A DNA stretch of 64,000 nucleotides from a candidate division WOR-3 bacterium (GCA_027053075.1 JALUEE010000090.1:10392-74391); one strand, 5' to 3'; counted from the first letter of the stretch, positions 8,469 through 50,665 are shown. Numbers and translations are program-made. The notes: generated by a model not told the origin, from the letters alone.

Positions 8469-8633
8469 AGGGGTGGCCCGCGCACTCTGTGCGCGGGCCA
8501 CCCCTAAAAAAGAGAGACAACTTTTCAATCAGCCCAACATGAGCTATTTGGCGAACTTCACGTTATTTGGGTTTCCAAAAGGAATCCCCCCATCTATCTC
8601 CTCCCCCCGCATAAATTTGTTCGCGGGGGGAGG
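8469..8633. repeat. pair of GC-rich palindromic units in the divergent rpoZ / TPR-lipoprotein promoter region
   Basis: AGGGGTGGCCCGCGCAC-TCTGT-GTGCGCGGGCCACCCCT (8469-8506) and CTCCTCCCCCCGC-ATAAATTTGTT-CGCGGGGGGAGGA (8598-8633). They share motifs with the repeats at 19.3, 28.1 and 50.4 kb. Confidence 0.6.
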
Positions 8634-8862
8634 ATGAAAGGAGAGGGGCCACATATTAAAGTTTTTTGGATAAAATGAGAGAAAATCTAACAAATTTTCC
8701 CTCACATCCAGTGTATGAGGGTATTTGTCTTAGATTATTAATTTTTCAAGAGAGATCCCTGCGTCTATACTTGCTTTGACAAGCAGTAGAAATCATTAAA
8801 TACACTCTATTTGCAAATGCAGATTATGGAGAATCAAATTTTCCAAATCCTTTTGTTTAACC

Positions 8863-25098: not shown

Positions 25099-25882
25099 CT
25101 ATTTCTTGCCTCCTTTCAGCGATTTCCTTAAGAAAATTTTTAAGCTCTTCGGGATTCCTGAGGAGGATTTTTAGTTCCATTAAGACGTTTGAGAAATCCT
25201 GTAGAGCGTCCTCAACATTTTTTCGGTTGGTTAAAAGTATATCAAATGCCATGTCAGGATTCTGGGCAGCAAGCCGGGTGGTGGATTTGATGCCTGGACC
25301 CCAAAAATCTGCATATTTTGACGAGAGTCTTGTGAGAGCCAGGGCTATCACATAAGGCATATGACTTGTGTAAGCCATCACAGTGTCGTGTATCTCTGGT
25401 TCGATCCAGATGGGAATTGCACCAACATCCCGAACGATGGTTTCAACAACTTTTTTGTCTTTTCGCCGAAGATTCCCGGAAAGGAAAAATTTCTGATTTT
25501 CAAAGAGGTCTGCATTCCAGCTCTCAGGACCCTTTTTCTCTGTTCCACACAGTGGATGACCTCCCACAAACTTGAGTTTTTTCCGCTTTGCAATTTCCAT
25601 TATCCTCAGCTTCGTACTTCCAGTGTCCATTATGATCCCGGCAAAACTTTCTATTGAGTCGAGGATTTTCTCGTTTGCGAGAATAGGAGCCGAAAGTATC
25701 AGAAAATCAACACTACCTTTTAGCTCGTCGAGTGTGTCAAACTGGCCGTCAATCTTTTCCTCAATTGCCTTTTTTATGGCCTTGTCTTTATCGAGGCCAA
25801 ATACCTGGTACTTCCCGGTTTTTGCAAGAGCAAGAGCCAGTGATCCACCTATTTGACCGAGACCCACGATTCCAATTTTCAT
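25091..25882 (-). CDS. tyrA: prephenate/arogenate dehydrogenase
   Basis: MKIGIVGLGQIGGSLA Rossmann motif ... HPLCG. Confidence 0.8.
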   Translation of the reverse strand: MKIGIVGLGQIGGSLALALAKTGKYQVFGLDKDKAIKKAIEEKIDGQFDTLDELKGSVDFLILSAPILANEKILDSIESFAGIIMDTGSTKLRIMEIAKRKKLKFVGGHPLCGTEKKGPESWNADLFENQKFFLSGNLRRKDKKVVETIVRDVGAIPIWIEPEIHDTVMAYTSHMPYVIALALTRLSSKYADFWGPGIKSTTRLAAQNPDMAFDILLTNRKNVEDALQDFSNVLMELKILLRNPEELKNFLKEIAERRQEIDD

Positions 25883-26700
25883 CTTTTTTCACCAGGATAT
25901 GAACCTATTACCTTCACAAAGGTTGCTAACTTCAGGAGTTCTATGAGTGCATCTTCGACGTTTTTGTCGGTTACGTGCCCCTCAAAATCGAGGTAAAATA
26001 CATACTGCCAGGGGGATTTTTTGTCCGGGCGAGACTCGATTTTTGTGAGATTTATGCCTCTTTTTGCGAAAGCTTCCAGACACTCCAGCAAAGCTCCAGG
26101 CTTGTGCCTTGTAGAAAAGACGATGGATGTTTTGTTGTAATCAGATTTCCCGGGTTCCTCACGCGATAGAATGAAAAATCTCGTGAAATTCCAGGGGAAA
26201 TCTTCGATGGATTCGTCAAGTATCTTTAGGCCGTAAATCCCAGCAGCCCTCTTTGAGGCGATACATGCATACTCAGGATTGTTCATCTCTTTTATTTTCC
26301 TTGCACTTCCTGCAGTGTCAAACTCTGGAATTGCCTGAAGATTTTTTCTGCGAATGTAGTTCTGGCACTGAGCTAAGGCCTGTGGGTGAGAGATGACGTA
26401 TTTAACAGTGGAAAGAGAAGCTGAGTCCACACCAAGAAGAGCATGGGATACCCTTAGTGTGACCTCTCCGTAAACGTGCAGAGGCGTCATAAACAGCAGG
26501 TCATAAACCTGAGTGACGGAGCCGGCAACAGAGTTTTCAATGGGTAGAATACCAAAATCTGCTTCTCCGCTTTGAACAAGCTCCACAACCTCTTCGAATG
26601 AATAGCAGGGGATCGTTTCAATGTCTTCGCTTTTGAAAAACTTCAGTGCCGCTTCTTCTGAAAAAGCGCCTTTCTCGCCCTGAAAAGCTACTTTTTTCAT
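25879..26700 (-). CDS. pheA: prephenate dehydratase with ACT domain
   Basis: KVAFQGEKGAFSEEAA...ESRP; the C-terminal ACT domain GALLECL. Confidence 0.85.
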   Translation of the reverse strand: MKKVAFQGEKGAFSEEAALKFFKSEDIETIPCYSFEEVVELVQSGEADFGILPIENSVAGSVTQVYDLLFMTPLHVYGEVTLRVSHALLGVDSASLSTVKYVISHPQALAQCQNYIRRKNLQAIPEFDTAGSARKIKEMNNPEYACIASKRAAGIYGLKILDESIEDFPWNFTRFFILSREEPGKSDYNKTSIVFSTRHKPGALLECLEAFAKRGINLTKIESRPDKKSPWQYVFYLDFEGHVTDKNVEDALIELLKLATFVKVIGSYPGEKR

Positions 26701-27053
26701 GATAAATCACTCCTCAAGGAGGCAGCGCCCCTCAAATAGACATGCTTAATCTCATCCTGTGATTTGTCGGTTTCAAAAAGGAGGAGAATGCGAATAACCC
26801 GTTTCATTGCTCCTTCTACCTCCATCTCCTGGGTGTCAAGCAGTGGAACACGTGTAAGGCCCATCTCTCTTGCCGCCTCTGCCGGAAACGCCTTGTTCAG
26901 ATCACTTGTTGCCGAAAAAATGATAGCAGAGATATTTTCTCCAGAAATTTGATTCCGCTCCAGAATCTCTGTCAAAAGCTCTTTTGTGCGGGAGAGAATC
27001 TCCTCGCGTTCATTTTTATTGCAGGTTATAGCTCCTCTGACTCCTCTTACCAT
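26697..27053 (-). CDS. aroH: chorismate mutase, AroH class
   Basis: MVRGVRGAITCNKNEREEIL...VYLRGAASLRSDLS is colinear with B. subtilis AroH. Confidence 0.85.
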   Translation of the reverse strand: MVRGVRGAITCNKNEREEILSRTKELLTEILERNQISGENISAIIFSATSDLNKAFPAEAAREMGLTRVPLLDTQEMEVEGAMKRVIRILLLFETDKSQDEIKHVYLRGAASLRSDLS

Positions 27054-27973
27054 GCCCTGCCGTTTGAACCGAAAAGGCGAATTTTCCTCTTTACCGTTTC
27101 TTTCACCATTTCTCTGCCCTCGCCGAGGTATTTCCTCGGGTCGAAGACGTCAGGGTTTTCTGAGAGGAATTTTCGAACACCTGCAAGAAAAGATAGTCTT
27201 AAGTCGGTATCTATGTTGATCTTGCAAATACCTGCCTCAATCGCGGCTTTAATCTGATCATCCGGTACTCCCTTTGCTCCTTTGAGCTCAGCACCATATT
27301 TTTCTGCAAGTGCAACAATGTCAGGAAGTACACCAGATGCACCGTGTAGAACGAGGGGAATTTTAACAAGTTCACGTATCTTTTTGATCCTTTCAATGTC
27401 TAATTTTGGCTCACCTTTGAACTTGTATGCACCATGGGATGTTCCCACTGCCACTGCAAGAGCATCAACTCCTGTGGCGTCTACGAACTCTTTTGCCTCC
27501 ACGGGGTCCGTAAGAACTGCTTCTCTTTCACTGACCTTGACGATATCTTCAATCCCTTTAAGTCTCCCAATTTCAGCCTCGACTGTTACCCCCACTGCGT
27601 GGGCAAGGTCCACAACTTTGGAAGTAATTCTTACATTATCCTCAAAAGGTTTATCCGAAGCATCAATCATTACAGATGTGAATCCATTTCGAATGGCCGA
27701 GACAATCACTTCCCAGTGCTTTCCGTGGTCCACGTGGAGTGCAATGGGGACAGATGACTTTGATGCGGCGAGTTTGACCATCTCTGCTAAAAATTCGATT
27801 CCAGCGTATTTCATTGCACCTTCACTAACTGCGATAATAACCGGTGAATTTTCTTCCTCTGCTGCCTCTACGATAGCCTGCATAAATTCAAGATTGTTGA
27901 TATTGAAGGCGCCTACACCATAACCCTTTTCGTAGGCGTCAGTGAGAATTTCTTTCATTGTAACAAGTGCCAT
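27047..27973 (-). CDS. fba: class II fructose-bisphosphate aldolase
   Basis: GYGVGAFNINNLEF...LHVDHG...VMIDAS zinc-aldolase motifs. Confidence 0.85.
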   Translation of the reverse strand: MALVTMKEILTDAYEKGYGVGAFNINNLEFMQAIVEAAEEENSPVIIAVSEGAMKYAGIEFLAEMVKLAASKSSVPIALHVDHGKHWEVIVSAIRNGFTSVMIDASDKPFEDNVRITSKVVDLAHAVGVTVEAEIGRLKGIEDIVKVSEREAVLTDPVEAKEFVDATGVDALAVAVGTSHGAYKFKGEPKLDIERIKKIRELVKIPLVLHGASGVLPDIVALAEKYGAELKGAKGVPDDQIKAAIEAGICKINIDTDLRLSFLAGVRKFLSENPDVFDPRKYLGEGREMVKETVKRKIRLFGSNGRAW

Positions 27974-28109
27974 GATTACCTCCTTGTAAATAGTTTAATC
28001 TTCGAGAGAAGGCGTTGCAATAGAGGGTGAATTTATGCGGGAAGGAAAATTTTGTAAGCAGGCATAAGCAATGAGTACTCGAGAGGCTCATCCTGTAAAA
28101 TAAAAAAAG

Positions 28110-28345
28110 AAAATACGCCCCTCTCCCACAAACTTAGTTTGTGGAAGAGGGTGCAGGGAGAAGGTATTCCGCTTGAAAACTTAAAAATCCAAGATGTAAA
28201 CCCTCACCCCACCCCTCTCCCGCGAAGCAGGAGAGGGAGATTTTCAGATTTTTGATTGAAATTTTGTCAGATGTGACCACTAACCTCATTCATATCCCAG
28301 CAGAGAATTTACACGGGGAGAGGAAGTTTATTTTGATGGGGTGTC
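28110..28345. repeat. intergenic mosaic repeat copy B (most complete)
   Basis: CTCTCCCACAAAC-TTAG-GTTTGTGGAAGAG palindrome, GGTATTCCGCTTGAAAACTTAAAAATCCAAGATGTAAACCCTCACCCC block, CCCTCTCC-CGCGAAGCAG-GGAGAGGG palindrome, then GAATTTACACGGGGAGAGGAAGT block. Confidence 0.7.
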
Positions 28346-28394
28346 TAAACTTTTTCTCTGGTAGAAAACCATTAAATTAGAGTGGATTGGGGAT

Positions 28395-29357
28395 TTATTT
28401 CACCCCTCTTTTTATCTCCGGTACAAGATAAAAGTTGATGCCTCTGTAATTGATTCGTTTGAGGTCCCCTCTTTTAACAAGCTGGTCAAGGAAGTTGTCC
28501 GGTATGTCCTCGAATCTTTTCTTCAGGGTTTCGATAATCTCATCTTCCCTCATTGGATGCCTGCGACAAATAGATTTTATGGCCTCAACTGGATTTTCAA
28601 ATCCTTCAAGGTCAAATTCACCCTGCTCCGGGTGTGTAATTGGAACTACATTCCCTAATATTGCATGCGCTCTTACAATGGCCTCTTCATCAGGTGGAAC
28701 AGCCCAGGGCTCTGCCGGTGGTCTGATGGGAACATTAATATAAACCCTATCCGGCCTGATCTTTTTAAGGGCTTGGGCAAGCTCGGTCAGCTCCTTCTCG
28801 CTGTCGTTCAACCCTTTAACGAGCATTATTTCAAGCCATATCTGACCTTTATAGATTTCCCGGAACCTGATTTGACCATCAATAACTTTATCAATTGTTA
28901 TACTTTTGTGCGGCCTGTTTAAACGTTTGAAAGTTTCCTCAAAAACGGTGTCAAGTGAGGGAAGTACTACATCAGCTTTCGAAAGGTCTTCTCTTACTCC
29001 CTTGTCATATAAAAGTGCCCCGTTGGTGATAACCGCCACAGGTAAACCTGTTTTTGATTTTGCCATCTCGATGAGCCAGCCCAGGTTAATGTTTAAAGTT
29101 GGCTCCCCCTCTCCCACAAATGTGATAAAATCTATTTTATTTTTATTGAGTGAAACTGCTTCGATTATTTCATCAAGGATGTCTTCTTTAGAGAAAAACT
29201 CCTGACGCTCATTGATAAGATGAAGTGTCCTCCCGAGTTGACAGTATACGCATGAGTAATTACAGGTTTTTAAGGGTATCGGATTAACACCGAGGGAACG
29301 ACCGAGCCTCCTTGATGGGACTGGTCCATATACATACTTAAATTTTTTCGAGTTCAC
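28395..29357 (-). CDS. radical SAM protein (GTG start)
   Basis: CNYSCVYCQLG CxxxCxxC cluster; GPVPSRRLGRSLGVN N-terminal motif. Confidence 0.8.
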   Translation of the reverse strand: MNSKKFKYVYGPVPSRRLGRSLGVNPIPLKTCNYSCVYCQLGRTLHLINERQEFFSKEDILDEIIEAVSLNKNKIDFITFVGEGEPTLNINLGWLIEMAKSKTGLPVAVITNGALLYDKGVREDLSKADVVLPSLDTVFEETFKRLNRPHKSITIDKVIDGQIRFREIYKGQIWLEIMLVKGLNDSEKELTELAQALKKIRPDRVYINVPIRPPAEPWAVPPDEEAIVRAHAILGNVVPITHPEQGEFDLEGFENPVEAIKSICRRHPMREDEIIETLKKRFEDIPDNFLDQLVKRGDLKRINYRGINFYLVPEIKRGVK

Positions 29358-29691
29358 TTTTCACCATCTCCAGTGCCTTTTCAATGGGTACATTTTTCTT
29401 CATTAATGGGAACATTTTTATACCCTTCTTTTCAAGTAGTTTCCTGTTTTGTAGACCCATTGAGTGGCCAATAAAAACCTGACAGTCCGAGAGCAAATGT
29501 TTTATGAGCTTTGCCTTCTCGGGATTGTTGTGCTCATCAATACCTAATTTTTCATCGGTGTAATCATTTATTCGCTTTTCAACGAAATGGAACTCACCAT
29601 CTTTGTAATCGTAAATGTAATACATTTCAGCGTCACCAAAATGGCCAAACCTCACAGTTTTACCGTCATCTGTGGCAACTGCTATTCTCAT
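29338..29691 (-). CDS. NifX/NifB-C-terminal-like (dinitrogenase FeMo-cofactor-binding fold) domain protein
   Basis: MRIAVATDDGKTV..HFGDAEMYYIYD matches the PF02579-type fold. GGAGGAG RBS. Overlaps the radical SAM start by 20 nt. Confidence 0.75.
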   Translation of the reverse strand: MRIAVATDDGKTVRFGHFGDAEMYYIYDYKDGEFHFVEKRINDYTDEKLGIDEHNNPEKAKLIKHLLSDCQVFIGHSMGLQNRKLLEKKGIKMFPLMKKNVPIEKALEMVKSELEKI

Positions 29692-30197
29692 GTTTCTCTC
29701 CTCCTTTTTGCAGCTATGAAAATTTCCATGAAAGTTTCACGAATTTCTACGATCTCAAAGCCGTACTTTTTAAGCATGGATTCAAATTCTTCCCTGCTGT
29801 AGTATCTTTCGGGGATTCCTGTATTCGCCCCTTTCTTCCAGTCTATGATGATAAAAATTCCGTCTGGCTTTAATACGAGTGGTAATTTGCTTAAGAATTT
29901 GTCAGGATGTGAGATATGATGGAAAGAATGTATGGTGTATACAAGATCAAACGTGCCTTCAAGTTTATCAACGTCTTCTGCTTTTAGCGGAACAAGCTCA
30001 ATGTTTTTATCTTTGTAATGGGTGGTATATGGGTCTATCCCAACGCCTCTAACTCCAAATTTTTCTACGAGCTTGAAAAGGAACCTCCCGCTTCCAGTAC
30101 CCACGTCAAGAATAGTATGTCCCTTTTCTGTTCGTGCAGTGACTGCCTTTAGTTTCAGGTTTTCTATGTATTTTGCGATAAAATCAAGGTGCTGCAT
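29688..30197 (-). CDS. class I SAM-dependent methyltransferase
   Basis: ILDVGTGSGRF motif I ... GIDP ... LKPDGIFII. GGAG RBS. Confidence 0.75.
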   Translation of the reverse strand: MQHLDFIAKYIENLKLKAVTARTEKGHTILDVGTGSGRFLFKLVEKFGVRGVGIDPYTTHYKDKNIELVPLKAEDVDKLEGTFDLVYTIHSFHHISHPDKFLSKLPLVLKPDGIFIIIDWKKGANTGIPERYYSREEFESMLKKYGFEIVEIRETFMEIFIAAKRRRET

Positions 30198-30358
30198 CAG
30201 TCTCCGAATTCTTCGTAAAGTTTCTGATAATCTTCTGTATCAACGACGAATTGATTCAGCTTCTGGTCATCCCGATCGAAGATATTTTGTCTGTAACGTT
30301 GAAAATTTCTACCATTTCTTTTGAGTCTTCTCAGGTTTATGGTATTTTTGAGATTCAT
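30197..30358 (-). CDS. possible 54-aa basic small protein (MNLKNTINLRRLKRNGRNFQRYRQN...), TGATG-coupled to the methyltransferase gene
   Basis: Found by manual translation of the minus strand; below the 60-aa cutoff of the ORF track. Only a weak GAG Shine-Dalgarno. Confidence 0.25.
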   Translation of the reverse strand: MNLKNTINLRRLKRNGRNFQRYRQNIFDRDDQKLNQFVVDTEDYQKLYEEFGD

Positions 30359-30509
30359 TCTCAATTATCGCCGGATTTTATTGATTAATCAAGATTTCGA
30401 GAACGTGTTCGGAAACATCACCTCTGTTTATCCCTTTGTGGGTGTAAGTGGAGTGAGTAGAAAGATGATGTTAAAAATTAAGTAATTCAAGACTTTCCAG
30501 TTTGGACGA

Positions 30510-30720
30510 AACGAAACTCCCTCCCTTCCACTGGAAGGGAGGGCTGGGGTGGAATGGGGGAACAAAATTTCGAAATAATTCATTTTCCCACTCTCCCCTG
30601 GCCTCTCCTTCCTCGAGAAAAGGAGGGAAATTTACGCTGCAATTATCATTGATGGGATTCCGTTAGAAAATGTGGCAATCAAAATTCAGATTTTTCGAAC
30701 AAGCTTGAACCGATGTTTAT
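30510..30720. repeat. intergenic mosaic repeat copy C (long form)
   Basis: CCCTCCCTTCCA-CTGG-AAGGGAGGG perfect palindrome, GGGGTGGAATGG, CTCCCCT...GGAGGGAAATTTAC, GATTCCGTTAGAAAATGTGG and GATTTTTCGAACAAGCTTG blocks. Paralogous to 36484-36745. Confidence 0.7.
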
Positions 30721-30803
30721 ACATGTATGGTGAGTCAGGAAGTTTAGATGAGTCTAAAAAGCCAGGCAGTGCATTATAAGGGTGCATTATAATTTCGATT
30801 CTT

Positions 30804-32042
30804 ATGCACAGGGAGACGCGGAAAATCTTTGAGAATTTCTCCTGGATGTTACTCGGTCAGGTGGCCGGTCGGGTATTTGGCTTCTTTGCCATCATCTTTC
30901 TTGCCAGGAGACTCGGTAAGAGTGCCTATGGTATGTGGGCTTTTGCATTCGCACTGCTTTCCTACGGCATGCTCCTAACGGATTTCGGACTCAGCACCTA
31001 CGGGTTGATCGAGGTTTCAAAAGACAGAAAAGCACTGAAAACACTCCTCGGAGATATCCTTTCCATCAGGCTTGTAATAGCATTTTTTCTACTCATCATC
31101 ATTGTTCCTTTCTCGCGGATTGTCCCAAAGCTCAGCTCAATGTCAGGCCTCTTATTCTTAACCTTCCTTAATCTCATCCCCTTTGCCCTCTCCTTAGATT
31201 GGGCGTTCAGAGCGCTGGAAGATATGAAGTTCGCTGCACTCTGGACGTTTATTTTTAATCTTTTATTCTTTTTGCTGATAATTTTTGTGGTTAGAAGTCC
31301 GTCAGATATTCTAAAAGTCCCATCCTCAAGATTCTTTTCACTTCTTATTGCTTCTGGTCTTCTTATTTACTTTCTCTGGAAAAGATACCCTGAGCTCTTT
31401 GCCTTCAATGTAAATTTCAGCAGATGGCCTGCCATTATGAAGGTTTCAGTTGTCCTTACGGCTTCCTTTGTCATGATTAAAATTTACTACAACATTGATG
31501 TACTGATGCTTGGATTTTACAGGACAATGAAGGAGGTGGGAGTTTACAGCGCAATTTACAACTTTGTCCTCGCCCTGTCAGTGGTGAGATTTTCGCTTCT
31601 CTATGCTGTGCAGCCTACACTTTCCCGGATTGAGCAGATACCCTGGAAGGATTATTCGAAAAAATTGTGGAAATTCGAGACAGTCTCCATAGCCATTGGG
31701 GTTCTTTTGTATCTTTTTGTTTTCGTTCTGGCAGGACCTATCATAAAGATTTTTTACGGTGGTAAATACACAAGTCCCGAAACAATAAAACTTTTAAGAA
31801 TTCTCATCAACGCCAACCTTATAATGTTCATAAACCTTGTTTTCCCCTCTCTTTTGATCATTGTGAAGAGGGAAATGCTCTACTTCTGGGTTACAACCGC
31901 TGGAGCGACCACAAACTTTTTATTAAATCTGTATCTGATACCGAGGTTTGGGTACTTTGGGGCTGCATACACGACTGTGCTCTCAGAATTTGTTGTATTT
32001 TTGCTGTCTTTTGTTTTATACTACCGCCTGATTAGACCATGA
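30804..32042 (+). CDS. MOP-superfamily (Wzx-like) polysaccharide/lipid-linked oligosaccharide flippase
   Basis: 412 aa with 12-14 TM helices and a Wzx-like N-terminal basic patch. Confidence 0.65.
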   Translation: MHRETRKIFENFSWMLLGQVAGRVFGFFAIIFLARRLGKSAYGMWAFAFALLSYGMLLTDFGLSTYGLIEVSKDRKALKTLLGDILSIRLVIAFFLLIIIVPFSRIVPKLSSMSGLLFLTFLNLIPFALSLDWAFRALEDMKFAALWTFIFNLLFFLLIIFVVRSPSDILKVPSSRFFSLLIASGLLIYFLWKRYPELFAFNVNFSRWPAIMKVSVVLTASFVMIKIYYNIDVLMLGFYRTMKEVGVYSAIYNFVLALSVVRFSLLYAVQPTLSRIEQIPWKDYSKKLWKFETVSIAIGVLLYLFVFVLAGPIIKIFYGGKYTSPETIKLLRILINANLIMFINLVFPSLLIIVKREMLYFWVTTAGATTNFLLNLYLIPRFGYFGAAYTTVLSEFVVFLLSFVLYYRLIRP

Positions 32043-32758
32043 AAGCATTTATTCTTGCAGCGGGAAAGGGTACACGACTTATGCCATTGACAGCCGAGAT
32101 TCCGAAGGCCCTGCTTGAGTTGAAAGAAGGCCTCACTCCACTGGATTTTCAGCTGAATCTACTCACCAAGTATGGGTTTTCCCCGGCGGATATTTTCATT
32201 ATCGGTGGTTATCGTTTTGAAAAACTCAAGAGATACGGTGAAATTGGAGTCAATCTTGTTTTTAATGAGAAATACGACAGTTTGAACAATATCTACACTT
32301 TTCTGCTTGCTTCAAATTTCACAAACGGTGAAGATTTTTTAATTTTGAATGTTGACACAATTTTTGATGAATCATTGCTCGATGAGCTTATAAAAACACC
32401 AGGAAGTGCAATGGTGGTGGATAACGTCAAGATTCTTGGTGATGAGGAAATGAAGGTCAAGATCGCTGATGGAAGAATTGTGGAGGTCAGTAAATTCATA
32501 CCACCTGAGAATGCCCATGGTGAATACATCGGGATTTCAAAATACTCGCACTCAGAGGCCACAGTGATATTCGACAAAATCAGGGATATGCTTGAAAATG
32601 GCGAGGGGCACAGATGGTATGAGGACGCAATAAATCTTGTTCTCGACAGGGTTGAGATATCACCTGTTTTCACAGAAGGTAAAAAGTGGATTGAAATTGA
32701 TACGCCGCAGGATTTAGAAATAGCGCGGGGGCTTGTTCATGATTTACAGAACGATTAA
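32039..32758 (+). CDS. LicC/IPCT-type alcohol-phosphate cytidylyltransferase (nucleotidyltransferase fold)
   Basis: MKAFILAAGKGTRLMPLT..PKALL, LVFNEKYDSLNNIYTFLL and WIEIDTPQDL are nearly colinear with S. pneumoniae LicC. ATGA overlap with the flippase gene. Confidence 0.8.
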   Translation: MKAFILAAGKGTRLMPLTAEIPKALLELKEGLTPLDFQLNLLTKYGFSPADIFIIGGYRFEKLKRYGEIGVNLVFNEKYDSLNNIYTFLLASNFTNGEDFLILNVDTIFDESLLDELIKTPGSAMVVDNVKILGDEEMKVKIADGRIVEVSKFIPPENAHGEYIGISKYSHSEATVIFDKIRDMLENGEGHRWYEDAINLVLDRVEISPVFTEGKKWIEIDTPQDLEIARGLVHDLQND

Positions 32759-33776
32759 CATTCCGGTTTTTCTGGAAATCGGTGAGGGTATCCTTGAAGA
32801 CTTTAATGGAATTTTAAAAAAACATAATCTCTCCTTTTCTCGTCCATTGATTCTCACAGGTGAGAAAAGCTCAAAAGTTCTTGCAGGATTTGATTTTTTT
32901 AATAGATTTGAAAAGCTATTCATCCGGGAAAACGACCTTGAAACTTTGCTCGTGATAAAAAGTGACATTTACGGTAAAGGTTACGATCTGTTACTCGCGT
33001 GCGGAGGTGGAAGGGTAATTGATAGTGGAAAGTTTCTCTCCCTCGAGACTTCCCTGCCACTTGTTGCTATTCCAACAATCTTATCGAGCGACAGCGTGTC
33101 ATCGCCAATAAGTATTCTTAAAGATAACCATGGAACGAGGAGCATGGGGACAGTTATGCCAATGGGGGTTTTAATTGATGTACAGATAATCAGGACTTCG
33201 CCCGAGATTTACCTAAAAGCGGGATTGGGTGACCTTATGTCCAATCTGTCATCTGCTTATGACTGGGAGCTTGCTTACAAACGAGGTTTTGAAAGAATCG
33301 ATAACTTCTCGAGGATGCTCGCCCTTTTGCCCGCTCAGCGGATTCTTCTCAAAACCGATGGGTACAAGGGGTTAAAAGACGAGGAGCTACTTGCTGATCT
33401 TGCCGAAGGACTGGTGCTCAGCGGAATTTCAATGGCTATAGCCGGGAGTTCAAGGCCTGCCAGTGGAAGTGAGCACAATATCAGCCATAGCCTTGACAGG
33501 ATACTCGGGCAGCAAAAGAAACTTCACGGGCTGCAGGTAGGACTTGCTACCGTTCTTACCCTAATTCTTCAGGGGAATAGAGAGCAGGCCGATGTGCTTT
33601 CGCAATTGTATAAGAAGACTGGCTTCCCTTTGAATTTAAAGGAGCTTGATATCTCCTGTGAAGATTTCGAGAAGGCCCTTGAAATAGCACCAGGCCTGAG
33701 AGACAGATATACTGTCCTTAATGAAATCCCTATTGAGGAGCTGAAAGAAGTCGCAAGAGCCAGACTCTGCAAGTAA
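32733..33776 (+). CDS. egsA: sn-glycerol-1-phosphate dehydrogenase (EgsA/AraM family)
   Basis: GGGRVIDSGK, PTILSSDSVSSP, GLGDLMSNLSSAYDWELAYK and SSRPASGSEHNISHSLD match the archaeal G1PDH motif set; 347 aa. Overlaps the cytidylyltransferase gene by 26 nt. Confidence 0.8.
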   Translation: MFMIYRTINIPVFLEIGEGILEDFNGILKKHNLSFSRPLILTGEKSSKVLAGFDFFNRFEKLFIRENDLETLLVIKSDIYGKGYDLLLACGGGRVIDSGKFLSLETSLPLVAIPTILSSDSVSSPISILKDNHGTRSMGTVMPMGVLIDVQIIRTSPEIYLKAGLGDLMSNLSSAYDWELAYKRGFERIDNFSRMLALLPAQRILLKTDGYKGLKDEELLADLAEGLVLSGISMAIAGSSRPASGSEHNISHSLDRILGQQKKLHGLQVGLATVLTLILQGNREQADVLSQLYKKTGFPLNLKELDISCEDFEKALEIAPGLRDRYTVLNEIPIEELKEVARARLCK

Positions 33777-33780
33777 CCAC

Positions 33781-34698
33781 ATGTTTGATCCCATTTATCT
33801 TGAAGCCTACGAGACGGGCAGGCTAAAGGAAAAAGTGGAAGAGGCCCTTGAGTCTCTGAGTTCATGCGTAGCCTGTCCGATTGGATGTCGGGTGAATAGG
33901 CTCGAAGATGAGATTGGTGATTGCGGGGTTGGGAGATTTGCAATTCTTTCTTCCTATGGACCTCATTTCGGGGAAGAATCTGTGCTTGTCGGTTACCACG
34001 GCTCGGGTACGGTGTTCTTTGGAGGATGCAACCTCAGATGTGTTTACTGCCAGAACTATGATATAAGTCAGCTCAGATGGGGTAGAGCAGTGGACGCTAA
34101 AACCCTTGCAGGTGTGTTCCTCGAAATTCAGGATATGGGTTGTCATAACCTCAATCTCGTGAGTCCCACCCACGTGGTTCCCCAGATCCTCGAAGCACTT
34201 TTGATCGCTGTGGAGAAAGGTTTCAGGCTACCTCTTGTTTATAATACAGGTGGATATGACCACATAAGGACGTTGAAATTGCTCGACGGAATTGTTGATA
34301 TTTACATGCCCGATACGAAATATGGCGATTCTAAAAAGGGTTTAAAGTACTCAGGGGTTAAAAACTACTTTGAGATCAATAAGAGAAACCTGAGAGAAAT
34401 GCATCGGCAGGTAGGAGATTTGAGGATTGAAGAAGGTCTTGCCGTCAGAGGACTCCTAATTCGGCATCTTGTTTTACCGAACAATATTTCTGACTCTGAG
34501 AAGGTCATCGATTTTATAGCCGATGAACTCTCAAAAGATAGCTGGCTGAATCTCATGGATCAGTATTATCCTGCCTACAGAGCGATGGAGTACCCTGAAC
34601 TGTCCCGAAGGATTACACGGAGAGAATACTTCAGGCTTGTGGATTATGCATTAAACAAGGGAATTCACAGAGGAATTCCGTTTGATCATGCCCGATAA
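33781..34698 (+). CDS. radical SAM protein, PflX/COG1313 (AmmeMemoRadiSam-type) family
   Basis: CNLRCVYCQNYDIS cluster plus an N-terminal extra Cys motif SCVACPIGC. Confidence 0.7.
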   Translation: MFDPIYLEAYETGRLKEKVEEALESLSSCVACPIGCRVNRLEDEIGDCGVGRFAILSSYGPHFGEESVLVGYHGSGTVFFGGCNLRCVYCQNYDISQLRWGRAVDAKTLAGVFLEIQDMGCHNLNLVSPTHVVPQILEALLIAVEKGFRLPLVYNTGGYDHIRTLKLLDGIVDIYMPDTKYGDSKKGLKYSGVKNYFEINKRNLREMHRQVGDLRIEEGLAVRGLLIRHLVLPNNISDSEKVIDFIADELSKDSWLNLMDQYYPAYRAMEYPELSRRITRREYFRLVDYALNKGIHRGIPFDHAR

Positions 34699-50265: not shown

Positions 50266-50364
50266 GCAAATTAGGAGAATTATTAAATTCAAAGAATTTT
50301 GTTTACTTTCCTGAGAGTTATTTGGTTATAGCAATCCCCATTGGAAATTATAAAATATAGCCCC

Positions 50365-50665
50365 TCACCTTGCCTCTCCCCGCAAAGAATTTATGCGGGG
50401 AGAGGAAGTTTTTGGGTGTAGGAGTAATTGATTGAACATGCAAACGGAGCGCATAGGCTAAATGAATTTCCACCTGTACATCCCTGCAATCACAATATAA
50501 ATTACCAGAAAACCAAGTAGAACCTTTCTAACAAGCGAAACTTGTTTCCCCCAACAACACAAAATATTTCCCTCCCCTGCGCTTTGCGCTGGGGAGGGTG
50601 AGGGAGGGGTATTCCGCTTGAAATCTTGAAATTACATATCTAAACCATCACCCTTACCCCCTTCT
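50365..50665. repeat. intergenic mosaic repeat copy E
   Basis: CCTCTCCCCGC-AAAGAATTTAT-GCGGGGAGAGG palindrome with embedded GAATTTATGCGGGGAGAGGAAGT block, CCCTCCCCTGCGC-TTTG-CGCTGGGGAGGG palindrome, then GGTATTCCGCTTGAAATCTTGAAATTACATATCTAAACCATCACCC block. Confidence 0.7.

What the first reader, a model, noticed from the sequence alone, without database searches (positions are those of the whole stretch)
28395..30358. Methyltransferase / NifX-like / radical SAM cassette with a translationally coupled 54-aa basic ORF at its head
The minus-strand operon has four parts. A 54-aa ORF (MNLKNTINLRRLKRNGRNFQRYRQN...EEFGD) ends with a TGATG overlap into a class I SAM methyltransferase (GGAG RBS). Then comes a NifX/NifB-C-terminal-like FeMo-cofactor-binding-fold protein (GGAGGAG RBS). 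Last is a GTG-started radical SAM enzyme (CNYSCVYCQLG; N-terminal GPVPSRRLGRSLG), which the NifX-like gene overlaps by 20 nt. The NifB architecture (radical SAM + NifX domain) is split and reordered here. Adding a methyltransferase and a small peptide suggests maturation of a metallocluster/cofactor or of a small modified product. This organism shows no nitrogenase in the window.
Basis: partly seen in the sequence, partly recalled or inferred. Interest (0 to 1): 0.5.

Follow-up and report, generated by a model that had tools for sequence, protein, structure and literature searches.

The report
Decayed leader gene; NifX-like/radical-SAM operon
The methyltransferase, NifX-like and radical SAM genes are real and intact, but the small "peptide" ORF at their head is the broken remnant of a 139-aa gene, and the radical SAM enzyme is not a split NifB but an uncharacterised, widespread family that usually sits beside "orange-protein"-type metal-cluster genes of anaerobes.

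Summary
The four minus-strand ORFs exist as described, with one correction: the small ORF is 53 aa from its ATG, not 54. The domain calls hold: class I SAM methyltransferase, PF02579 NifX-like protein, radical SAM enzyme.

The small basic ORF is not a gene. A syntenic sister contig, 95% identical, has an intact 139-aa gene at that position. The window lost about 286 bp of it and also has a 1-nt frameshift. The ATG comes from the old 5'UTR, the basic stretch is an out-of-frame reading, and only the last ~24 codons are ancestral. The ancestral protein belongs to a rare, divergent Panacea (SocA-like) family.

The radical SAM enzyme has only the three CX3CX2C cysteines, so no SPASM or twitch domain. 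It carries none of the five NifB-specific motifs and falls below every curated family cut-off. The family is large (≥593 species) and very conserved (≥51% identity between bacteria and archaea). In 43 of 79 loci it lies within 3 kb of MinD/Mrp-type ATPases (a broad local profile; Pfam finds ferredoxin inserts in most adjacent ones), PF02579 proteins or DUF134. That is the gene set of the Desulfovibrio orange-protein (ORP) complex.

Best reading: a reduced ORP-type metal–sulfur cluster module with unknown chemistry. Interest is moderate.

The parts
28395..29357 (-). Radical SAM enzyme, 320 aa, GTG start. It belongs to an uncharacterised, highly conserved family with the N-terminal motif YGPVPSRRLGxSLG. 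It has a single CX3CX2C site and a C-terminal helix-helix-helix-strand-strand module that looks like a winged helix.
   Evidence: PF04055 E=1.9e-18. All NCBIfam hits are far below their cut-offs: viperin 53.8 vs 180, MoaA 50.4 vs 284, TYW1 30.5 vs 318. Only C32, C36 and C39 are invariant in 23 bacterial and archaeal homologues. AF2 model pLDDT 78.9. Foldseek finds only the generic radical SAM core. dN/dS against L008 is 0.10.
29338..29691 (-). Single-domain PF02579 protein (NifX / NifB C-terminal / orange-protein 'Di-Nase' fold), 117 aa, GGAGGAG RBS. Its 3' end overlaps the radical SAM start by 20 nt.
   Evidence: Nitro_FeMo-Co 52 bits vs GA 26.3. It is below the cut-offs for nifX (31 vs 112), nifB (46.5 vs 344) and MrpORP (18.7 vs 450). 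It has one Cys (C70) and an HFG motif at H17. dN/dS is 0.06.
29688..30197 (-). Class I SAM-dependent methyltransferase of the small-molecule type, 169 aa, GGAG RBS. Its start overlaps the stop of the remnant ORF (TGATG).
   Evidence: Methyltransf_23 E=8.8e-20. The best NCBIfam hit, the DVU_1556 family, scores 49 vs cut-off 155. The nearest solved structure is 3dh0, a generic methyltransferase. It is fused to the PF02579 domain in L001/L002. dN/dS is 0.25.
30197..30358 (-). It is a pseudogene remnant of a 139-aa Panacea-like gene. Codons 1-5 come from a former 5'UTR mini-ORF. Roughly codons 6-28 are an out-of-frame reading of ancestral sequence. The last ~24 codons (DDQKLNQF...EEFGD) are in the ancestral frame.
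   Evidence: L008 4663-4726 matches window 30408-30345, and L008 5069 onward matches window 30288 onward. Between these, 342 bp in L008 correspond to 56 bp in the window. tblastn finds only the C-terminal 24 aa. The ORF is a singleton in the protein collection.
30289..30344 (-). Scar of the ~286-bp deletion: 56 nt that align only weakly with the 3' part of the lost region, with 3-nt and 1-nt gaps. Read in the ancestral frame it gives ...T*EDSKEMVEIFNVTDKISS..., which contains a stop codon.
30345..30408 (-). Conserved promoter/5'UTR segment shared with L008 (62/64 identical). It contains a sigma-70-like -35 TTGATT and -10 GATAAT (30392-30364). The ATG of the remnant ORF begins 6 nt after the -10 hexamer and has no Shine-Dalgarno sequence.
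   Evidence: 96.9% identity; promoter scan; a consensus match only. In L008 the same ATG opens a 12-codon out-of-frame mini-ORF upstream of the real start.
28119..28151 (-). Terminator-like G+C-rich hairpin (15 bp stem) followed by a T-run. It is the likely 3' end of the operon.
   Evidence: inverted repeat I3, 94% complementary.

Best explanation
The locus is a former four-gene operon that now has three intact genes.

Shown: the first gene encoded a 139-aa divergent Panacea (SocA-like) domain protein. In this population it was destroyed by a ~286-bp deletion plus a frameshift. What remains is a 53-aa chimeric open frame that is very unlikely to be functional.

Shown: the three downstream genes are intact, under purifying selection and tightly coupled. 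They encode a class I SAM methyltransferase, a single-domain PF02579 'Di-Nase'/NifX-like protein and a radical SAM enzyme. They are probably still transcribed from the conserved promoter.

Shown: the radical SAM enzyme belongs to a large, very conserved, uncharacterised family with a single [4Fe-4S]/SAM site and no auxiliary-cluster cysteines. In bacteria and archaea this family is preferentially embedded among the gene types of the Desulfovibrio orange-protein (ORP) complex: MinD/Mrp-type ATPases, many with ferredoxin inserts, PF02579 proteins, MrpORP-like proteins, DUF134, DUF5320 and NifU.

Inferred mechanism: the PF02579 protein acts as a carrier that holds an inorganic metal–sulfur species or a small cofactor intermediate. 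Documented members of this fold do so: NifX/NafY, the ORP Mo-Cu-S cluster, IssA thioferrate and the MrpORP Fe-S cluster. The radical SAM enzyme performs a 5'-deoxyadenosyl-radical step on or for that cargo or its client. In this lineage the methyltransferase, which is physically fused to the carrier in a relative, adds a methyl group to the same cargo. The Panacea-like protein was a dispensable accessory subunit, either a regulator or a protein-binding adaptor. The substrate and the exact chemistry remain unknown.
For: Pseudogene:
- L008 is 95% identical and syntenic, and has an intact 139-aa gene where the window has the 53-aa ORF.
- The junction, the frameshift and the frames were worked out.
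- All nine close homologues are 138-140 aa.
- The 53-aa sequence is a singleton.
- The allele is reproduced in two other assemblies.

Intact remainder:
- dN/dS is 0.06-0.25.
- Overlapping starts and stops and RBSs are visible in the sequence.
- The promoter segment is conserved.

Coupling:
- The methyltransferase and PF02579 domains are fused in L001/L002.
- PF02579 plus the radical SAM gene are adjacent and overlapping in a WOR-3 relative.
- An archaeal locus has 2 PF02579 genes, 2 MinD-ferredoxin ATPase genes, the radical SAM gene and DUF134 in a row.

Family context:
- Pfam scan of the ±2 same-strand neighbours in about 75 loci gives ParA/NUBPL 24 hits, of which 17-18 have Fer4 domains, Nitro_FeMo-Co 7, DUF5320 4, NifU_N 3, DUF134 3 and DUF364/DUF4213 3.
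- Local profiles find an ORP-type gene within 3 kb in 43 of 79 loci. Density is 16-19 per 100 ORFs within 2 kb.
- The ORP complex composition and the cluster-binding roles of PF02579 proteins are taken from PMC6345978.

Panacea-like family:
- 11 of 30 members hit PF13274, which is the only Pfam family found.
- Distant members sit in front of a methyltransferase, a PF02579 gene or MinD-ferredoxin ATPase genes.
Against: - No MinD/ferredoxin ATPase, second PF02579 gene or DUF134 is present anywhere in the 64-kb window, so here the 'ORP module' is minimal.
- Close homologues of the NifX-like protein (62-68% identity) also occur alone, without this radical SAM.
- 36 of 79 radical SAM loci show no ORP-type neighbour within 3 kb.
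- My local MinD profile may include generic ParA/Mrp proteins.
- The PF02579 protein has only one Cys, so any cluster would have to be held non-covalently.
- No experiment or paper links this radical SAM family to any substrate. Six literature searches for the radical SAM family or its ORP link found nothing on it.
- The best partial HMM hits (viperin, MoaA) are nucleotide-acting enzymes, which leaves a nucleotide substrate open.
Confidence: 0.6

Rival explanations
1. RiPP-like or small-peptide maturation. The 53/54-aa ORF is a precursor peptide that is modified by the radical SAM enzyme and the methyltransferase.
For: The arrangement looks superficially RiPP-like: a short ORF coupled by TGATG to modifying enzymes.
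Against: The ORF is a deletion-plus-frameshift remnant of a 139-aa folded protein (pLDDT 94). Its basic part is an out-of-frame reading. It is a singleton. It has no SD, and its ATG lies next to the -10 element. The radical SAM enzyme has no SPASM/twitch cysteines and no RiPP-recognition element.
Confidence: 0.02
2. Split NifB. The radical SAM enzyme and the NifX-like protein together, with the methyltransferase supplying the methyl-transfer half-reaction, carry out NifB-like carbide or cluster-fusion chemistry in a non-diazotroph.
For: The NifX-like protein matches the C-terminal domain of the nifB model. NifB structures are among the top Foldseek hits (7bi7 E=1e-9). From established NifB mechanism, NifB uses SAM both as a methyl donor and as a radical source, which a methyltransferase plus a radical SAM enzyme could in principle divide between them.
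Against: None of the five NifB-specific fingerprint motifs is present in the window protein or in 22 homologues (motifs from PMC5715403). There are no conserved Cys or His residues for K1/K2 clusters. The NifB fold hit is no better than PFL-activase or viperin, at 18% identity and TM about 0.5. The methyltransferase is present only in a narrow sub-lineage. The NifX-like protein has a single Cys.
Confidence: 0.06
3. Nucleic-acid or nucleotide modification. The radical SAM enzyme, labelled 'wyosine synthetase' (the label matches the name of COG0731, from memory), 'GTP 3',8-cyclase' or 'QueE' by automatic pipelines, acts on tRNA or on an NTP, and its neighbours are incidental.
For: Automatic names are listed. 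The best partial HMM hits are NTP-acting enzymes: viperin, MoaA and QueE. The family has invariant basic motifs (SRRLG, RHPxR) and a C-terminal winged-helix-like module. TrmO_N genes lie next to the radical SAM gene in 4 loci.
Against: Every curated model is missed by a wide margin: TYW1 30 vs 318, MoaA 50 vs 284, QueE 33 vs 260. The enzyme lacks the second cluster that MoaA and TYW1 have. Bacteria do not make wyosine (established knowledge). Overlapping translational coupling with PF02579 genes and the recurrent ORP-type context are not expected for a tRNA enzyme.
Confidence: 0.15
4. PanA-type toxin-antitoxin or defence cassette. The 139-aa Panacea-like protein is an antitoxin, and one of the downstream enzymes is its toxin or effector.
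Against: The putative antitoxin has been lost here while all three downstream genes stay intact under purifying selection, which is not tolerable for a real toxin. The downstream partner varies (methyltransferase, PF02579 or MinD-ferredoxin ATPase) but always belongs to the same metabolic neighbourhood. The signature GPV motif is degenerate in this lineage (QPYTF). The pVip and viperin scores are generic-core level, 54 vs cut-off 180. The locus sits among housekeeping genes with conserved synteny.
Confidence: 0.04

Closest known systems
Orange-protein (ORP) complex and MrpORP of Desulfovibrio vulgaris / D. alaskensis (Orp3/Orp4 MinD-type ATPases with two ferredoxin motifs; Orp8 single-domain PF02579 protein binding a Mo-Cu-S cluster; Orp9 = MrpORP) (PMC6345978)
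   Same: The window has a single-domain PF02579 protein. Homologous loci of the radical SAM family carry the same gene set: PF02579 genes, tandem MinD-ferredoxin ATPase genes and MrpORP-like ~400-aa proteins. The lineages are anaerobes.
   Different: The held MrpORP paper lists five ORP proteins, none a radical SAM enzyme, methyltransferase or Panacea-like protein, and six literature searches found no link. The window itself lacks the ATPases and MrpORP. The NifX-like protein scores only 18.7 vs cut-off 450 on the MrpORP model. Sigma-54 control was not examined.
NifB / NifX / NafY (FeMo-cofactor biosynthesis)
   Same: The PF02579 fold of the 117-aa protein is shared. The pairing of a radical SAM enzyme with a NifX-type domain is also shared.
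   Different: The radical SAM enzyme lacks all NifB-specific motifs and the K-cluster ligands. The NifX-like protein is below the nifX and nifB cut-offs. There are no nif genes in the window.
Panacea (DUF4065, SocA-like) antitoxin domain, PanA (PMC8832971, PMC10440598)
   Same: The ancestral 139-aa protein family gives PF13274 as its only Pfam match (11 of 30 members, best E=5e-7). It is a compact alpha/beta domain, first in the operon and overlapping the next gene. The nearest solved fold is the DarG antitoxin chain.
   Different: The window-lineage proteins fall below the Pfam gathering score (17-25 vs 25.7). The GPV motif is not kept in this lineage. The partners are metabolic or metal-handling genes, not toxins. 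The gene is dispensable here. Many distant members carry 3-4 conserved cysteines.
Viperin / MoaA / PFL-activase-type 'minimal' radical SAM enzymes
   Same: The partial TIM-barrel radical SAM core and CX3CX2C motif are shared. These are the best partial HMM and fold hits.
   Different: Identity is about 18% and all scores are far below the family cut-offs. The family has its own invariant N-terminal YGPVPSRRLGxSLG motif, an NxPxRPPxExW motif, an RHPxR motif and a winged-helix-like C-terminus.

Membership tests
Radical SAM superfamily (PF04055) | CX3CX2C cluster motif and a Pfam score above the gathering threshold | tested here: met
   67.6 bits vs 29.5. C32-x3-C36-x2-C39 is invariant in 23 homologues.
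SPASM/twitch radical SAM enzymes | Additional conserved cysteines for auxiliary Fe-S cluster(s) C-terminal to the core | tested here: not met
   The only other Cys (C264) is not conserved. No invariant Cys exists beyond the three. SPASM-type NCBIfam hits score ≤25 bits vs cut-offs of 400-650.
NifB (TIGR01290) | Fingerprint motifs HPC, ExRP, AGPG, TxTxN and Cx2CRxDAxG in the radical SAM domain (PMC5715403) | tested here: not met
   0 of 5 motifs in the window protein and in all 23 aligned sequences.
NifB (TIGR01290) | Whole-protein score above the curated cut-off | tested here: not met
   nifB is not among the 25 best NCBIfam hits listed for the radical SAM protein. The NifX-like protein matches only positions 331-435 of the model, at 46.5 vs 343.65 bits.
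NifX (TIGR02663) | Score above the curated cut-off; nif gene context | tested here: not met
   31.1 vs 112 bits. No nif-type or further PF02579 genes were found in the window by tblastn.
PF02579 Nitro_FeMo-Co ('Di-Nase') domain family | Pfam score above the gathering threshold over the full domain | tested here: met
   52.0 vs 26.3 bits, covering model positions 7-93 of 94.
ORP (orange protein) complex gene cluster | Single-domain PF02579 protein together with paired MinD-type ATPases carrying two ferredoxin motifs (Orp3/Orp4) and MrpORP | tested here: not met
   Only the PF02579 component is present in the window. tblastn with archaeal MinD-ferredoxin ATPase and DUF134 queries finds nothing in 64 kb. 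The feature is met in many homologous radical SAM loci.
ORP (orange protein) complex gene cluster | Binding of a Mo-Cu-S or Fe-S cluster by the PF02579 protein | not testable with these tools
   This needs anaerobic purification and metal analysis.
TYW1 / wyosine synthase (TIGR03972; 'COG0731' label from memory) | Score above the cut-off; second Fe-S cluster | tested here: not met
   30.5 vs 317.95 bits. There are no auxiliary-cluster cysteines.
Prokaryotic viperin (NF038283 / PADLOC pVip) | Score above the cut-off across the full length, including the CTP-binding C-terminal part | tested here: not met
   53.8 vs 180 bits, restricted to core residues 29-204. The pVip match covers only residues 29-198.
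Class I SAM-dependent methyltransferases | Rossmann-type methyltransferase domain above the Pfam thresholds | tested here: met
   Methyltransf_23 71.5 vs 27, Methyltransf_11 50.1 vs 21.2.
DVU_1556 family methyltransferase (NF045667) | Equivalog score above the cut-off | tested here: not met
   49 vs 155 bits.
Panacea / PanA antitoxin (PF13274) | Pfam score above the gathering threshold | tested here: inconclusive
   L008 protein 17.2, L001 protein 19.8 and L003 protein 24.8 bits vs 25.7. 11 of 30 family members match at E≤0.01, best 5.2e-7, and PF13274 is the only family hit.
Panacea / PanA antitoxin (PF13274) | Conserved GPV signature motif (PMC8832971) | tested here: not met
   The window-lineage proteins have QPYTF at that position. 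Some distant members keep GPGVF or GPAVF.
Panacea / PanA antitoxin (PF13274) | Paired with a growth-inhibiting toxin that requires it | tested here: not met
   The gene is destroyed in the window while the downstream genes remain intact with dN/dS 0.06-0.25. This is indirect evidence; toxicity was not assayed.
RiPP precursor peptide | Short ORF conserved with its modifying enzymes | tested here: not met
   The ORF is a singleton. All relatives have a 138-140-aa gene instead.

The most novel reading that the evidence does not exclude
The conserved YGPVPSRRLG-type radical SAM family, together with PF02579 carriers (and here a carrier-fused or carrier-coupled methyltransferase), could be the missing catalytic component of ORP-type systems. 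In that reading it builds or remodels an unrecognised metal–sulfur or organometallic cofactor on a NifX-like scaffold in non-diazotrophic anaerobes and archaea. This would be functionally analogous to NifB but evolutionarily independent of it.
Probability: 0.1. Interest if true: 0.85.

Novelty: new variant of a known kind. Interest (0 to 1): 0.38.

Why it matters
The function of the anaerobe-specific ORP complex is still unresolved, and so is the function of the many stand-alone NifX-like proteins in organisms that do not fix nitrogen.

This radical SAM family has ≥593 species hits and keeps ≥51% identity between bacteria and archaea. It is preferentially wired into ORP-type neighbourhoods. 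That gives a concrete, testable catalytic candidate for these systems.

The locus also offers natural 'genetics':
- A methyltransferase–carrier fusion in one relative points to which proteins work together.
- The loss of the Panacea-like gene in this population indicates that this gene is dispensable.

For annotation, the case shows that a plausible 'translationally coupled micro-ORF' can be a deletion scar. It also shows that the automatic names given to this radical SAM family (wyosine synthetase, GTP 3',8-cyclase, QueE) have no support.

Tried and rejected
- Curated family assignment of the radical SAM enzyme: nothing reaches a cut-off in NCBIfam or Pfam.
- PDB sequence search with the radical SAM enzyme gave only marginal viperin-like hits. 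Foldseek against the PDB gave only the generic core.
- PDB sequence search with the NifX-like protein gave nothing.
- Six literature searches for the radical SAM family or its ORP link found no paper on it. The terms were COG1433, COG0731, PF02579, DUF134/DUF5320/COG1149, ORP plus radical SAM, and the motif PSRRLG.
- Fiévet 2011, the original ORP paper, is not held in the library.
- An Rfam scan of 27900-30900 looked for a riboswitch, for example Moco or SAM. It returned only sub-threshold miRNA-like hits on a G+C-rich hairpin, so no riboswitch was found.
- Foldseek of the 139-aa model against the PDB gave no significant match. The afdb50 library was unavailable.
- My first local iterative methyltransferase profile drifted because of the methyltransferase-NifX fusion protein. 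I discarded it and used Pfam instead.
- A low-gap-extension global alignment of the deletion region fragmented. I therefore defined the junction from the blastn anchors and the MAFFT alignments.
- A search for the Panacea-like gene in the 80 GTDB radical SAM loci found none. It is lineage-restricted.
- The short representatives P0145 and P0151 of the 139-aa family are contig-edge fragments (one begins MYKRQ, which I recognise, from memory, as read-through of a sequencing adaptor). They are not truncated alleles.
Full report
**1. What is in the sequence**

- Small ORF, 30197-30358: 53 aa from the ATG, or 55 aa from a TTG at 30364.
- Methyltransferase, 169 aa, 29688-30197: it overlaps the small ORF by TGATG and has a GGAG RBS.
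- PF02579 protein, 117 aa, 29338-29691: GGAGGAG RBS.
- Radical SAM protein, 320 aa, GTG start, 28395-29357: it overlaps the PF02579 gene by 20 nt.

Pfam confirms the three domain calls: Methyltransf_23 E=8.8e-20, Nitro_FeMo-Co E=9.2e-14 and Radical_SAM E=1.9e-18.

A G+C-rich hairpin with a T-run at 28151-28119 looks like the operon terminator. A sigma-70-like promoter (-35 TTGATT, -10 GATAAT) lies at 30392-30364.

**2. The small ORF is a pseudogene remnant**

The closest radical SAM homologue (P0001, 98% aa identity) sits on contig L008. That contig is syntenic with the window and 95% identical to it. Where the window has the small ORF, L008 has a 139-aa gene.

The blastn anchors are:
- L008 4663-4726 matches window 30408-30345 (promoter/5'UTR, 62/64 identical).
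- L008 5069-7114 matches window 30288-28247.

Between these anchors L008 has 342 bp and the window has 56 bp. The 56 bp align only loosely with the 3' part of the missing segment, with a 3-nt and a 1-nt gap.

The consequences are as follows.
- The ATG of the window ORF is the start of a 12-codon out-of-frame mini-ORF in the 5'UTR of L008 (MNLKNRGKQPWN*).
- The basic stretch RRLKRNGRNFQRYRQNIF is a wrong-frame reading. In the ancestral frame the window reads T*EDSKEMVEIFNVTDKISS, which is homologous to DSLPVEMREILDRIIEETS of relatives and contains a stop.
- Only the last ~24 codons (DDQKLNQFVVDTEDYQKLYEEFGD) are ancestral. tblastn E=7e-6.

Further points support this reading.
- All nine close homologues are 138-140 aa.
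- The 53-aa sequence is a singleton among about 15 billion proteins.
- Shorter database entries are contig-edge fragments.
- The truncated allele is real. It is present without gaps in GCA_015489415.1 (99.92% identical) and in a Logan assembly of SRR10312501 (100% identical).
- The ATG lies 6 nt after the -10 hexamer and has no SD.
- The TGATG 'coupling' and the GGAG RBS are inherited from the 139-aa gene.

**3. What the lost gene was**

The 139-aa protein folds confidently (pLDDT 94.3). An exhaustive HMMER search of 1.8 billion representative proteins finds only 40 relatives.

PF13274 (SocA_Panacea) is the only Pfam family matched. It is hit by 11 of 30 members, with best E=5e-7, but the window-lineage proteins are below the gathering score.

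The GPV signature described for Panacea (PMC8832971) is kept as GPGVF or GPAVF in some distant members but reads QPYTF in this lineage. Many distant members carry 3-4 conserved cysteines.

Distant members sit directly upstream of a methyltransferase (L089), a PF02579 gene (L091/L092) or tandem MinD-ferredoxin ATPase genes (L093). This is therefore a Panacea-like accessory protein of ORP-type operons, not a classical antitoxin. Its loss here, with the downstream genes still under purifying selection (dN/dS 0.25, 0.06 and 0.10), argues against those genes being toxins.

**4. The radical SAM enzyme**

Every NCBIfam hit is far below its cut-off: viperin 54 vs 180, MoaA 50 vs 284, W-cofactor maturase 50 vs 380, TYW1 30 vs 318.

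An alignment of 23 bacterial and archaeal homologues (≥51% identical to the window protein) shows only three invariant cysteines, those of CX3CX2C. The alignment also shows family-specific invariant motifs:
- YGPVPSRRLGxSLG
- GEGEPTL
- NxPxRPPxExW
- RHPxR

None of the five NifB-specific fingerprints (HPC, ExRP, AGPG, TxTxN, Cx2CRxDAxG; PMC5715403) occurs in any of the 23 sequences.

In the AF2 model (pLDDT 78.9), NifB is a top Foldseek hit (E=1e-9). It is level with PFL-activase, viperin, DesII, TYW1 and RlmN, all at about 18% identity and TM about 0.5. The match is to the generic core. The C-terminal ~55 residues form a helix-helix-helix-strand-strand module; calling it a winged helix is my inference.

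The automatic database names are mutually inconsistent: 'wyosine synthetase', 'GTP 3',8-cyclase', 'QueE'. I found no paper on the family.

**5. Genomic context of the family**

The family is large. All 120 best hits are ≥53% identical, and at least 593 GTDB species carry it. These include Methanosarcinales/ANME, Asgard archaea, Anaerolineae, Zixibacteria, Ignavibacteriales and Clostridia.

In close relatives the cassette varies.
- In L001/L002 the methyltransferase and PF02579 domains are fused into one 273-aa protein.
- A WOR-3 relative has the Panacea-like gene, the PF02579 gene and the radical SAM gene, but no methyltransferase.
- A Halobacteriota locus has 2 PF02579 genes, 2 MinD-ferredoxin ATPase genes, the radical SAM gene and DUF134, then NifU.

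A Pfam scan of the ±2 same-strand neighbours in about 75 loci gives the following counts:

| Family | Hits |
|---|---|
| ParA/NUBPL | 24 (17-18 with Fer4 domains) |
| Nitro_FeMo-Co | 7 |
| DUF5320 | 4 |
| NifU_N | 3 |
| DUF134 | 3 |
| DUF364/DUF4213 | 3 |

ZIP and ArsP transporters also appear among the neighbours.

With local profiles, 43 of 79 loci have a MinD/Mrp-type, PF02579 or DUF134 gene within 3 kb. Density peaks within 2 kb.

This is the gene repertoire of the Desulfovibrio ORP complex: Orp3/Orp4 ATPases with ferredoxin motifs, Orp8 (a PF02579 protein with a Mo-Cu-S cluster) and MrpORP (PMC6345978).

There are caveats.
- The window itself has none of the ATPases.
- Close NifX-like homologues also occur alone.
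- 36 of 79 loci show no such neighbour.
- My MinD profile may include generic ParA proteins.

**6. Mechanism**

Shown:
- The operon structure.
- The intactness of the three genes.
- The single-cluster nature of the radical SAM enzyme.
- The carrier-type fold of the 117-aa protein.
- The methyltransferase-carrier fusion in a relative.
- The ORP-type context of the radical SAM family.

Inferred: the PF02579 protein holds an inorganic or cofactor-like cargo. The radical SAM enzyme performs a radical step on or for that cargo or its client. The lineage-specific methyltransferase methylates the same cargo. The Panacea-like protein was a dispensable regulatory or adaptor subunit.

The substrate is unknown. 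A nucleotide or RNA substrate remains a serious rival, at about 0.15.

**7. Verdict**

I rate this a new variant of a known kind, namely an ORP-type module extended by an uncharacterised radical SAM family, a methyltransferase and a Panacea-like accessory gene that has decayed here. Interest is moderate.

Noticed in passing
window 30409-30682 vs L008 4375-4662; window 8599-8654; window 50361-50413: The intergenic spacer upstream of the operon cannot be aligned between the two 95%-identical strains. It contains G+C-rich hairpins (for example 30517-30543). A 56-nt piece of the L008 spacer recurs at window 8599-8654 (94.6% identical), and a piece downstream of the L008 radical SAM gene recurs at 50361-50413. 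This suggests a small mobile intergenic repeat (REP/MITE-like).
   Followed up: partly
window 30289-30344: The 56-nt scar is only about 60% identical to L008, while the flanks are 95% identical. That is more divergence than neutral decay alone should give (dS is about 0.1-0.2). It may derive from a different allele or from a complex rearrangement.
   Followed up: partly
L001 2128-2949 and L002 3307-4128: In a relative whose radical SAM enzyme is 73% identical, the methyltransferase and the PF02579 domain are one fused 273-aa protein. This is a natural Rosetta-stone fusion.
   Followed up: yes
alignment A7 (P0138, P0141, P0146, P0149-P0161 and others): Distant members of the 139-aa Panacea-like family carry 3-4 conserved cysteines (GCxHPF, CxEK, GC...C) that the window lineage lacks. 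This hints at a metal- or cluster-binding, possibly sensory, version of the domain.
   Followed up: no
window 30804-34698 (+): The divergently transcribed neighbouring operon encodes a Polysacc_synt flippase, an NTP_transferase, an Fe-ADH-type dehydrogenase and a second, unrelated 305-aa radical SAM protein (Pfam labels taken from the syntenic L008 genes).
   Followed up: no
L076 7167-8345, L033, L027: Proteins of about 400 aa with a PF02579 domain lie next to the radical SAM gene in Anaerovorax odorimutans, an Anaerolineaceae MAG and a Helarchaeota MAG. They could be MrpORP-like.
   Followed up: partly
window 28395-29357 (radical SAM enzyme, database names): Public annotations of this family are contradictory: wyosine synthetase, GTP 3',8-cyclase, 7-carboxy-7-deazaguanine synthase. 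None is supported by curated model scores.
   Followed up: yes
window 25879-27973 (-): Directly downstream lie a class II fructose-bisphosphate aldolase gene, an AroH-type chorismate mutase gene and a prephenate dehydratase gene (Pfam labels from L095). These are housekeeping genes, so the cassette is chromosomal and not on an obvious mobile element.
   Followed up: no
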